Positions 55,852 through 57,251 of a stretch of DNA of 64,000 nucleotides are shown here, piece by piece. Source of the DNA: Myxococcota bacterium (lineage in GTDB: Bacteria; Myxococcota_A; SURF-8; G963663525). The position numbers and the translations under genes are program-made. The stretch lies in NCBI GenBank assembly GCA_963676915.2, contig CAXXVK010000043.1:192001-256000 (forward strand), given 5' to 3'. The notes under the pieces were generated by a model, which saw only the letters and a list, made by a program, of their open reading frames with translations, did not search any database and was not told the origin of the DNA. Numbering within the stretch: the stretch's first letter is position 1; each line of letters begins with the position of its first letter.

Positions 55852-55915
55852 GATAAAGAAAAAACTCCTGAAATATCAATCGGTTCAATGGAAAGGGTAG
55901 CGACTGTGATTGAAG

Positions 55916-56848
55916 TCAAGCAAATTTTGGTTTCCACTCCTCCCTATTTTTAAGCATAGTATTCATGATAACGAGGAGTTTCCGCATAGATGCGATGACG
56001 GTGGTCATTTTGGGTTTACCCATAGTGACGTGCCTTTGATTGAAGGCTCGAATCACAGGGTTGTGCTGGATGGCGGACAAAGTGGGCATGTACAGTTGGG
56101 TGCGCACTTGCCTTCTTCCACCACCGGTCATGCGTTTGCCTTTGAACGTGCCGCTATCTCGATTGAACGGAGCGACGCCGACGAGAGCGGCGATTTGGCG
56201 CCGGTTGTATTCACCCAGTTCGGGCAAATCAACGATCAGGCAGTGAGCCGTGAGCGAACCGATACCGGGAACGGTCATGAGGCATCGAACCTTTTCGGAG
56301 AGCGATTCGTTGCGTTGAACGATGCTCCGTATCGCCTCCTCGATGCTTTCGACGTTCTTGTCCAGTGCTTTGATGATCGTTTTCAGACTGCGTGCGACAA
56401 GCTTGTCGTCGGCGTGTTCCATACGGTTTTTCTCTGCTGTTCGCATATCGATCAGTTGCCTTCGGCGAGCCGCAAGGGCTTTGAGTTTCAGACTCTCGGG
56501 AGTGATTTTTCGCATGTGACGGGGCTGGACCAGTGCGGCGTAGCGAGCGATGAGGTTGGCGTCGATGCGATCGGTTTTCGCTAAAAGTCCAAGAGACTGA
56601 GCGAAGGCGCGAATACGTCGTGGATTGACGACGGCCACATTGAAATTCCGTTTTTGCAGGAACTGGGCCAGGCGGTTTTCGTAGCCACCGGTGGATTCCA
56701 TGGCGACCAGATCTGGCGCGGCGTTGCTGATTTTACGAAACGCTTTTTTCATTCCTGCTGGGGTGTACTCAAAAGTCTCGACGGTTCGGGACGAACCTAC
56801 GGCCAGATCGAACGAAAGCTTGCTGATGTCGATTCCGACGGTTTCCAT
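55916..56848 (-). CDS. IS110 recombinase/transposase (DEDD RuvC + Tnp20 domain)
   Basis: GIDISK, MESTGGY, KTDRIDA, VPGIG, GVAP..RDSG (catalytic Ser) and MRKL. The likely start is ATG 56848 (METVGID). Confidence 0.95.
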
Positions 56849-56854
56849 CTCGTT

Positions 56855-57057
56855 CACCCTTCCTTGCTCATGCGGGCTCATCGGTGTACAATGGCCCTAG
56901 CGACTGTTCGGGCTTCCCGGACAAAACGGGCGGCGGATCCAGCTACACACGGGTTGAAAAACCCAAGGTCGGGACGATCTCGCCGCCCGATGCTCCCTGG
57001 GCGGCCGCCCAGGGAGCATCACCATTTTACCACAACAAACACCTGAAAACTGACACA
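56855..57057 (-). ncRNA. Predicted bridge RNA of the IS110 element
   Basis: 5' hairpin (perfect palindrome 56989-57020). Target-binding loop 56927-56989 with guides UCCCGACCU and GUAG. Donor-binding loop ~56856-56913 with guides ACAGUCGCU and CAAG. Ends are approximate. Confidence 0.8.
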
Positions 57058-57073
57058 ATAAAGATCATACAAG

Positions 57074-57251
57074 GTCGGGTAAGTTTTTTGCCTGACACCC
57101 ATCTGATGGTTCAGTATTGTAAACTGAACCAAAACGTTGAAGAGCAGGATTCAATCCTGCTCCATCGAGGACGAACCAAGGGAAATGACAGGAATCATGC
57201 TCTAGTAAAAGACAAAACCGAAGCGTCGGGCAAGAAATTTGCCCGACCTAC
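57074..57251. repeat. Family-2 REP doublet with nested palindromes
   Basis: Interrupted REP 57074-57096 and inverted REP 57225-57251 (GTCGGGCAAGAAATTTGCCCGACCTAC). Internal hairpins GGTTCAG..CTGAACC (57108-57130) and GAGCAGGAT..ATCCTGCTC (57142-57162). Confidence 0.8.

What the first reader, a model, noticed from the sequence alone, without database searches (positions are those of the whole stretch)
55897..57096. IS621-like IS110 inserted into a REP, with a fully readable bridge RNA programmed for that REP
Seen: excising 55901-57073 restores the REP GTAG|GTCGGGTAAGTTTTTTGCCTGAC, and the CT core (AG on +) is present at both ends. On the minus strand the target is ACCCGAC-CT-ACCC and the donor (circle junction) is ACAGTCG-CT-TGTAT. 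The upstream non-coding end holds a 5' hairpin followed by two loops. The first is closed by GGGCGGCG/CGCCGCCC and carries UCCCGACCU (56966-56974; 8/9 match to left target + core) and GUAG (56943-56946; complementary to CTAC). The second carries ACAGUCGCU (56899-56907; 9/9 match to 55899-55907) and CAAG (56863-56866; complementary to CTTG). Established: IS110/IS621 bridge-RNA recombinases use this layout, a CT core and REP targets. Inference: this is an intact natural bridge recombinase with its own target and donor specificity in a lineage far from E. coli.
Basis: partly seen in the sequence, partly recalled or inferred. Interest (0 to 1): 0.85.

Follow-up and report, generated by a model that had tools for sequence, protein, structure and literature searches.

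The report
REP-targeting IS110 with bridge RNA
This is an intact insertion sequence of the known IS110 "bridge RNA" type, sitting in a short repeated palindrome of its host genome, and its guide RNA can be read letter by letter; it is a clear new example of a known mechanism, not a new one.

Summary
Window 55901-57073 (minus strand) is a 1173-bp IS110-group element. It has a 223-nt left end, a 310-aa DEDD/Ser recombinase gene and a 15-nt right end, and is bounded by CT on both sides.

- **Copies:** the genome holds six full copies. Five of the six lie at xCCCGAC-CT-AC in REP hairpins.
- **Free sites:** 133 unoccupied CCCGACCTAC sites exist, against about 11.5 expected.
- **Empty site:** a contig from another public run joins 55898 to 57072, skipping exactly 1173 bp.
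- **Bridge RNA layout:** the left end holds a 5' hairpin, a target loop (LTG UCCCGACCU, RTG GUAG) and a donor loop (LDG ACAGUCGC, RDG AU-GAG-CAAG). Both first handshake positions fit.
- **Covariation in relatives (39-54% protein identity):**
  - RTG matches the right flank in 71 of 73 loci (shuffled mean 13.8).
  - LTG tracks the left flank.
  - LDG matches the right end in 67 of 75.
  - 25 of 28 stem pairs show changes on both sides.

NCBIfam already names this protein family "IS110 family RNA-guided transposase". Expression, circle formation and activity are not shown. Verdict: a new member of a known kind, of modest interest.

The parts
55901..57073 (-). The whole element, 1173 bp counting one copy of the CT core.
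   Evidence: Six copies are identical between these points. The empty-site contig skips exactly 1173 bp.
57074..57096 (.). The occupied REP hairpin GTCGGGTAAGTTTTTTGCCTGAC. Its arm read on the minus strand gives the left target ACCCGAC (57080-57074).
   Evidence: It belongs to a REP family with 118 target-bearing hairpins in the genome.
57072..57073 (-). CT core at the left junction.
55897..55900 (-). CT core (55900-55899) and right target AC (55898-55897) at the right junction.
   Evidence: All 7 right junctions in the genome read CT-AC.
57064..57069 (-). TATGAT, the -10-like half of the promoter that a circle junction would rebuild.
   Evidence: Read. In an in-silico junction it is TTGACT-17 nt-TATGAT, 10 of 12 matches. 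Inference only; no circle was seen.
55914..55919 (-). TTGACT, the -35-like half of the junction promoter. It overlaps the stop codon TGA (55918-55916).
   Evidence: The donor left half starts 11 nt after the first base of the stop codon in 49 of 75 relatives.
57024..57032 (-). TGgTAAAAT, an extended -10-like motif just upstream of the 5' hairpin. It is a possible promoter for integrated copies.
   Evidence: Read by eye. The consensus scan lists no minus-strand promoter here, so this is weak.
56989..57020 (-). 5' stem-loop of the bridge RNA, a 14-bp perfect hairpin.
   Evidence: It also appears as the 32-nt self-complementary matches.
56928..56988 (-). Target-binding loop. It comprises the outer stem 56988-56981/56935-56928, the GAUC/GAUC stem 56979-56976/56939-56936, the LTG 56974-56966, the inner hairpin 56965-56950, the RTG 56946-56943 and the handshake C at 56942.
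56857..56912 (-). Donor-binding loop. It comprises the outer stem CCC 56912-56910/GGG 56859-56857, the LDG ACAGUCGC 56907-56900 (+U 56899), the inner hairpin 56897-56874, the RDG AU 56871-56870 and CAAG 56866-56863 (split by GAG), and the handshake G at 56862.
   Evidence: The layout is as in IS621: RDG A157-U158/C162-G165.
55916..56848 (-). Recombinase gene, 310 aa plus stop. The catalytic residues are D7, E51, D93, D96 and S232.
55901..55915 (-). Right end, 15 nt after the stop codon. It ends in the donor left half ACAGTCG (55907-55901).
57225..57251 (+). A neighbouring unoccupied REP, GTCGGGCAAGAAATTTGCCCGAC-CT-AC. It carries a free target on the plus strand about 150 bp from the occupied one.

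Best explanation
This is an IS110-group insertion sequence that moves by bridge-RNA-guided recombination and is aimed at a REP palindrome of its host.

**Shown**
- The element's limits and its CT core.
- Its recombinase family and catalytic residues.
- A conserved RNA fold in the left end.
- Four guide segments and two handshake positions that match this element's own flanks and ends, and that change together with flanks and ends in relatives.

**Inferred from the IS621 work**
- The element leaves as a circle.
- The joined right and left ends form a sigma-70-type promoter (TTGACT-17-TATGAT) that drives a roughly 170-210-nt RNA.
- Its second loop pairs with ACAGTCG-C (LDG) and CT-TG..AT (RDG) of the circle junction.
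- A recombinase tetramer exchanges strands at CT using S232 and the DEDD site.

The effective target here is about 10 bp (CCCGAC-CT-AC), because LTG position 1 does not pair.
For: **Family**
- Pfam PF01548 and PF02371 both match.
- NCBIfam NF033542 scores 220.7 bits against a cut-off of 140.
- The solved IS621 and ISCro4 recombinases match.
- D7, E51, D93, D96 and S232 are invariant in 6 of 6 aligned relatives.

**Limits and site**
- 6 full copies and 1 contig-end copy exist. 5 of 6 left flanks read CCCGAC-CT and 7 of 7 right flanks read CT-AC.
- An empty-site contig was found.
- 133 free sites exist against 11.5 expected, and 118 of them lie in hairpins.

**RNA**
- The covariance model hits 87 of 88 sources next to the gene.
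- 94.6% of cells are paired against 69.0% in shuffles and 31-48% when the partners are slid. 25 of 28 pairs show changes on both sides.

**Guides**
- RTG fits in 71 of 73 loci, against a permuted mean of 13.8 and a maximum of 24.
- LTG positions 2-7 match in 190 of 264 cells, against a permuted mean of 109 and a maximum of 134.
- LDG positions 1-7 match in 67 of 75, against 26.8.
- The target-loop handshake base is complementary to donor position 7 in 73 of 73 loci, namely 70 C:G and 3 U:A.

**Same-order genomes**
- G003 has LTG UCCCGACCU and 8 of 8 copies after CCCGAC-CT.
- G005 has LTG UCCCAUCCU and 8 of 8 copies after CCCATC-CT in a REP variant found only there: 13 sites, against 0 in G000, G001 and G003.

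**Recent activity**
- The left and right ends are identical in all six copies, and 4 of 6 ORFs are intact.
Against: - No RNA data: no RNA run was listed.
- No circle junction was found in the assembly. ACAGTCGCTTGTAT occurs 0 times.
- The consensus promoter scan finds nothing on the minus strand of the integrated left end.
- Rfam has no family that reaches threshold here.
- 2 of 6 copies are frameshifted.
- One copy (contig C53) sits at AAACGGAC-CT-AC outside a REP, so specificity is not absolute.
- The alignment used for pair counts was fitted to the model's structure, which favours it.
- The left-flank test used only the 50 loci that carry a unique CTTGTAT. 28 loci had none and were dropped.
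- The relatives are kin, so shuffle controls overstate independence.
Confidence: 0.9

Rival explanations
1. A legible but now dead element. The guides and gene look intact, but the element no longer moves in this strain, for example through lack of expression or a host factor.
For: - No RNA holder was listed and no circle junction is in the assembly.
- 2 of 6 copies carry frameshifts.
- Decayed relics exist on C60 and C27.
Against: - Four ORFs are intact, and all six left and right ends are identical.
- Presence is polymorphic: the site is empty in a roughly 94% similar relative.
- No copy was found in the one same-genus genome searched, although it has 108 target REPs.
- All of this points to recent spread.
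Confidence: 0.15
2. The left end is only a leader or regulatory region for the recombinase, and the protein alone recognises the REP.
For: - The 3' strand of the donor loop (CAAGGAAGGG) overlaps the ribosome-binding site 8 nt before the ATG, so the fold could regulate translation.
- Older literature proposed regulatory roles for the ends (passage in PMC11208160).
Against: - A leader would not need to change in step with the flanks.
- 13 RTG types each match their own right flank: 44 of 46 loci whose RTG is not GUAG.
- LTG follows the REP variant (CCCGAC against CCCATC) between genomes.
Confidence: 0.03
3. An IS1111-group element with its guide (seek) RNA downstream of the gene.
For: It belongs to the same protein superfamily.
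Against: - The right end is only 15 nt and the left end is 223 nt.
- The model hit is upstream of the gene.
- The subterminal inverted repeat is about 4 bp (ATCA/TGAT), not 7-17 bp. The criteria come from PMC11208160.
Confidence: 0.01

Closest known systems
IS621 of Escherichia coli (IS110 group; Durrant et al. 2024, PMC11208160; Hiraizumi et al. 2024, PMC11208158; passages read)
   Same: - DEDD plus Ser recombinase.
- Long left end and short right end.
- CT core and a REP target.
- Right target AC: the IS621 target is ATCAGGC-CT-AC.
- A 9-nt LTG slot, a 4-nt RTG, an 8-nt LDG, and an RDG split as AU / 3 nt / CAAG.
- First handshake positions that pair.
- A promoter rebuilt across the circle junction.
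   Different: - The protein is only distantly related (E 4e-30), and there is no DNA match in E. coli.
- The left target is CCCGAC rather than TCAGGC.
- Donor positions 6-7 are C,G here against A,T in IS621. The handshake base changes with them: C here against A81 in IS621.
- LTG position 1 does not pair here.
- Nothing is shown experimentally for this element.
ISCro4 recombinase (PDB 9t56)
   Same: It is the best solved-structure match: E 7.1e-36 over residues 3-301.
   Different: It is known to me only as a PDB title. Its RNA and target were not compared here.
ISPpu9 / ISPpu10 of Pseudomonas putida (PMC12288879; bioRxiv 10.64898/2026.03.19.712850; abstracts seen only in the listing)
   Same: They are multi-copy IS110 elements inserted in REP or other conserved intergenic repeats of their host.
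   Different: They are in a different host and were not compared by sequence here.
Unnamed 8-copy relatives in same-order genomes G003 and G005
   Same: - Same RNA model and same right target.
- G003 has the identical LTG and the same REP family.
   Different: - They are 54% identical in protein.
- G005 is aimed at a different REP stem, CCCATC.

Membership tests
IS110 family, IS110 group (bridge-RNA elements) | [quoted passage not shown] | tested here: met
   PF01548 at 1.3e-25 and PF02371 at 3e-18. NF033542 scores 220.7 bits against a cut-off of 140.
IS110 family, IS110 group (bridge-RNA elements) | Catalytic D, E, D, D and the conserved Ser (IS621 D11, E60, D102, D105, S241). | tested here: met
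   D7, E51, D93, D96 and S232 are invariant in alignment A1. By eye in the printed alignment, they lie in the GID, E(A/S)TG, KTDxxDA and SG motifs aligned with IS621.
IS110 family, IS110 group (bridge-RNA elements) | Long left end, short right end, no long terminal or subterminal inverted repeats, and a 2-nt core at both junctions. | tested here: met
   The left end is 223 nt and the right end 15 nt. CT is at both junctions in 6 of 6 copies. The short inverted repeat ATCA/TGAT flanks the donor (read).
IS110 family, IS110 group (bridge-RNA elements) | The left end encodes an RNA with a 5' stem-loop and two internal loops closed by stems. | tested here: met
   Fold z-score is -5.1, with 0 of 200 shuffles as good. 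There are 28 pairs in 5 helices. 94.6% of cells are paired, and 25 of 28 pairs show changes on both sides (on a model-fitted alignment).
IS110 family, IS110 group (bridge-RNA elements) | Loop segments match the element's own target and donor, and covary with them across relatives. | tested here: met
   RTG fits 71 of 73. LTG fits 190 of 264 against 109 permuted. LDG fits 67 of 75. The handshake base fits 73 of 73. G003 and G005 give within-genome sets of 8 each.
IS110 family, IS110 group (bridge-RNA elements) | Site-specific insertion, often into REP elements. | tested here: met
   5 of 6 full copies are at CCCGAC-CT-AC in REP hairpins. The target is enriched: 133 sites against 11.5 expected.
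IS110 family, IS110 group (bridge-RNA elements) | A circular intermediate whose junction rebuilds a promoter for the RNA. | tested here: inconclusive
   The motif is present in silico: TTGACT-17-TATGAT. At least 9 of 12 positions match in 33 of 46 relatives (no shuffle control). No circle junction is in the assembly.
IS110 family, IS110 group (bridge-RNA elements) | The RNA is expressed, binds the recombinase and directs recombination. | not testable with these tools
   No RNA run was listed. This needs bench work.
IS1111 group (RNA in the right end) | A long right end carrying the RNA, and subterminal inverted repeats of 7-17 bp. | tested here: not met
   The right end is 15 nt, and the model hit lies upstream of the gene.

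The most novel reading that the evidence does not exclude
Within one bacterial order, the insertion-sequence clade and the host REP families have diversified together.

- The left target guide follows the REP stem. It reads CCCGAC in G000 and G003, and CCCATC in G005, where that REP variant alone occurs.
- A conserved, non-pairing U occupies guide position 1, giving a natural 10-bp target.

These genomes would then be a natural record of how bridge-RNA guides get reprogrammed in evolution. The C60 locus (left-end and right-end stubs around an unrelated 130-aa ORF at a canonical target) could be a cargo-bearing, non-autonomous derivative.
Probability: 0.35. Interest if true: 0.5.

Novelty: new member of a known kind. 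Interest (0 to 1): 0.3.

Why it matters
It adds a well-documented natural bridge recombinase from outside the enterobacteria, with the features below.
- All guide segments are assigned.
- Several copies exist in the genome.
- 133 free natural targets exist.
- An observed empty site confirms the boundaries.
- Sister elements in related genomes carry changed guides.

That makes it a convenient test case for three questions: target rules (the non-pairing LTG position 1 and single-position handshakes), how guides follow host repeats, and ortholog screening. It does not change the picture of how these elements work. Standard annotation already labels the protein family as RNA-guided.

Tried and rejected
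**Leads that gave nothing**
- **Rfam scan.** 5 matches at E up to 10, and none reaches its gathering score. The best is sX15 (30.2 bits against 55) on the opposite strand at the same coordinates. No bridge-RNA family was reported.
- **Consensus promoter scan.** It found 1 promoter-like site, on the plus strand outside the element, and none in the left end. The two promoter readings in this report are therefore mine, by eye and by the script.
- **RNA evidence.** No RNA holder was listed, so expression is untested.
- **Logan contigs.** They gave the empty site but cannot show RNA ends or rare circles.
- **Host taxon.** It could not be named.
- **C53 insertion.** Whether this off-REP copy interrupts a gene was not settled. 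An open frame starts right at the junction.

**Known flaws in the counts**
- The left-flank test dropped 28 loci that have no unique CTTGTAT.
- Several rows are off by one column in the model alignment, which lowers the count.
- Of the two RTG misses:
  - L077 is a script tie; the 8-mer search gives the fitting site.
  - L054 looks like an alignment-register problem.

**Papers.** Supplements of the IS110 papers are closed, so I cannot say whether this element or its clade is already in their ortholog tables. I made no literature search for this specific element. The only paper search was.

**Considered and rejected.** IS1111 type, leader-only reading, chance match (see the rival explanations).

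Full report
**What is at the site.**

Read on the minus strand, the stretch runs as follows.
- A REP hairpin arm ending in ACCCGAC.
- CT.
- A 223-nt non-coding left end that starts TGTATGATC.
- An ORF.
- 15 nt ending ACAGTCG.
- CT, then ACCC.

The ORF listed (55916-56881, 321 aa) most likely starts at the ATG at 56848. The Pfam match begins at residue 15 of the long form, and a purine-rich ribosome site lies 8 nt upstream. The 310-aa product is P0001.

**The protein.**

- It has both IS110 domains: PF01548 at 1.3e-25 and PF02371 at 3e-18.
- It passes NCBIfam NF033542, 'IS110 family RNA-guided transposase', at 220.7 bits against a cut-off of 140.
- It matches two solved recombinases, ISCro4 at 7.1e-36 and IS621 at 4.1e-30.
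- In an alignment with five relatives of 40-52% identity, D7, E51, D93, D96 and S232 are invariant. They correspond to the DEDD and Ser residues that Hiraizumi et al. give for IS621: D11, E60, D102, D105, S241 (passages).

**Boundaries and copies.**

The genome (5.18 Mb, 74 contigs) holds six full copies and a seventh cut by a contig end.
- All six copies share the same first and last bases, and their flanks diverge immediately outside CT...CT.
- Left flanks are ACCCGAC, GCCCGAC (three times), ACCCGAC and, on contig C53, AACGGAC. So 5 of 6 read CCCGAC.
- All 7 right flanks begin AC.
- The copies differ at four substitution sites and two small insertions, all inside the gene. The left and right ends are identical in all six.
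- Four ORFs are intact and two are frameshifted.

A 519-nt contig of public run X2, about 94% like the flanks, aligns to 55591-55898 and continues at 57072-57254. It therefore lacks exactly 1173 bp, with a 2-letter ambiguity that equals the core.

**The target.**

- CCCGACCTAC occurs 133 times free in the genome, against about 11.5 expected from base composition. 118 of these end a GTCGGG-N(3-20)-CCCGAC hairpin.
- The consensus is GTCGGGCAAGAAATTTGCCCGAC-CTAC, often in tandem pairs. One free copy lies 150 bp away at 57225-57251.
- The base before CCCGAC is G in 92, A in 39, T in 1 and C in 1 of the 133 sites. The guide's U at that place therefore never matches.

**The RNA.**

- The left end folds far better than shuffles: -101.8 kcal/mol, z -5.1, 0 of 200 shuffles as good.
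- I built a covariance model from six sequences with a hand-set structure of 28 pairs. It found one match next to the recombinase gene in 87 of 88 sources searched. These were the window, 7 genome loci and 80 metagenome loci of 39-54% protein identity; L048 had none.
- On that alignment, 94.6% of cells are paired, against 69.0% in shuffles and 31-48% when the partners are slid. 25 of 28 pairs show changes on both sides.
- The alignment was fitted to the model, so this count leans towards the structure.

The layout is that of IS621 as described in the two 2024 papers:
- a 5' stem-loop;
- a target loop with a 9-nt LTG slot and a 4-nt RTG either side of a small hairpin;
- a donor loop with an 8-nt LDG and an RDG split as AU, three unpaired bases, CAAG.

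Here the RDG reads AU-GAG-CAAG against the left-end start CT-TG-T-AT.

**Do the guides track the DNA?**

*Right target guide*
- The reverse complement of the RTG equals core plus the next two flank bases in 71 of 73 distinct loci.
- The permuted mean is 13.8, with a maximum of 24 in 2000 permutations.
- Among the loci whose RTG is not GUAG, 44 of 46 fit. Thirteen RTG types occur.

*Left target guide*
- 50 loci have a unique CTTGTAT upstream, of which 44 are distinct. 28 loci without one were dropped.
- LTG positions 2-7 equal the flank in 190 of 264 cells, against a permuted mean of 109 and a maximum of 134.
- Position 1 matches in only 8 of 44, and the guide has U there in 30 of 44.

*Left donor guide*
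- Positions 1-7 equal the right end in 67 of 75 loci, against 26.8 permuted.
- The last two letters read CT in only 19 of 75.

*Handshake positions*
- The base just after the RTG (C at 56942 here) is complementary to donor position 7 in 73 of 73 loci: 70 C:G and 3 U:A.
- The base after the RDG (G at 56862) fits target position 7 in 45 of 53 loci.
- Compared with IS621 (A81 with donor T7), this element has C with donor G7. That is a change on both sides.

**Relatives in the same order.**

- Of 30 relatives searched with the protein at E 1e-20, 6 had a match.
- The one same-genus genome had none. It is 96% complete.
- G003 and G005 each had 8 identical copies at 54% identity. G007 and G009 had one copy each at 61%.
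- G003 has the same LTG. 8 of 8 copies lie after CCCGAC-CT, and 7 of 8 are followed by AC.
- G005 has LTG UCCCAUCCU. 8 of 8 copies lie after GCCCATC-CT and are followed by AC.
- The G005 copies sit in a REP variant, GATGGGCAAC..GTTGCCCATC. It has 13 free target-bearing copies in G005 and none in G000, G001 or G003.
- Counts of the CCCGAC REP with its target:

| Genome | Target-bearing CCCGAC REPs |
|---|---|
| G000 | 118 |
| G001 (same genus) | 108 |
| G006 | 55 |
| G007 | 20 |
| G003 | 11 |
| G009 | 9 |
| G008 | 4 |
| G005 | 3 |
| Genomes outside the order | at most 1 |

So the repeat is older and more widespread than this element.

**Promoters (inference).**

- Joining the right and left ends in silico gives TTGACT, 17 nt, TATGAT. 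The -35 hexamer overlaps the stop codon.
- 46 relatives have both ends located. Of these, 33 show at least 9 of 12 matches and 39 have a 17-nt spacer (no shuffle control).
- This agrees with the published statement that the circle rebuilds a promoter across the core (PMC11208160, passage).
- An extended -10-like TGgTAAAAT sits just before the 5' hairpin. It is only a motif, and the scan did not list it.

**Comparison and verdict.**

The element meets every sequence-level criterion of the IS110 group and fails those of the IS1111 group (criteria). It is not close to IS621 in sequence. There is no DNA match in 20,395 E. coli records, and the best plasmid-borne relatives are 43-44% identical and annotated 'IS110 family transposase'.

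Its window encodes acetyl-CoA synthase/CO dehydrogenase subunits, a PilQ-type secretin and CheB. Named hosts of the nearest relatives are Planctomycetota, Phycisphaerae, Caldithrix, Desulfococcaceae and Gallionella genome bins.

Expression, circles and recombination are untested. The finding is correct and well read, but it is a new member of a known kind.

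Noticed in passing
G000 contig C60:183310-183877 (minus strand): A derivative at a canonical target. The REP arm ACCCGAC is followed by AT instead of CT. Then come 57 nt of left end (89% identical, including the TGgTAAAAT motif), about 460 bp of unrelated DNA with a single-copy 130-aa ORF that has a hydrophobic N-terminus, a second REP, and the last 15 nt of the right end followed by CT-AC. 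It has no recombinase gene, and the bridge-RNA model found no match there. It is either a relic or a non-autonomous cargo form. A 669-nt contig of run X1 shows the same join.
   Followed up: partly
G000 contig C27:18613-18748 (minus strand): A degenerate bridge-RNA-like stretch (57.2 bits with model R1). No recombinase similarity was found within about 2 kb (tblastn gave no hit). It lies about 150 nt upstream of an unrelated long ORF. It looks like an orphan left-end relic.
   Followed up: partly
window 56852-56998 (+): The best Rfam hit, below threshold, is sX15, a Xanthomonadaceae sRNA (30.2 bits, E 0.021). It covers the same coordinates as the bridge RNA but on the opposite strand. That Rfam family may be related to IS110 left ends.
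   Followed up: no
window 56857-56866 (-): The 3' strand of the donor loop (CAAG, handshake G, then AAGGG) doubles as the ribosome-binding site 8 nt before the ATG. CAAGGA(A/T)GGG is conserved in many relatives. RNA folding or donor binding could therefore affect translation.
   Followed up: no
G000 contig C53:153664-154836: This is the one copy outside a REP, at AAACGGAC-CT-AC. It keeps the core, the right target and 4 of the 6 left-target bases, so it looks like an off-target insertion. An open frame begins right at the junction, and gene disruption was not settled.
   Followed up: partly
G001 (same genus) and same-order genomes: The REP family with the target motif is order-wide, with 108 copies in G001. 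Yet G001 gave no match to the recombinase at E 1e-20.
   Followed up: partly
runs X2, X3 laid on window 55897-57017: Another sample holds a roughly 95% identical variant of the element: a 1122-nt contig with 57 differences.
   Followed up: no
G000 contig C53:180066-180527 (+): A seventh PF01548 match (87.4 bits) is not one of the six copies. It is a second, different IS110-family gene in the genome.
   Followed up: no
window 41954-45587 (+): Genes for acetyl-CoA synthase/CO dehydrogenase beta and delta subunits suggest a host with the Wood-Ljungdahl pathway.
   Followed up: no
window 55907-55910 and 57064-57067 (-): A short inverted repeat, ATCA ... TGAT, flanks the donor core region. It fits the 2-3-bp subterminal repeat described for the IS110 group (read; passage).
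   Followed up: no
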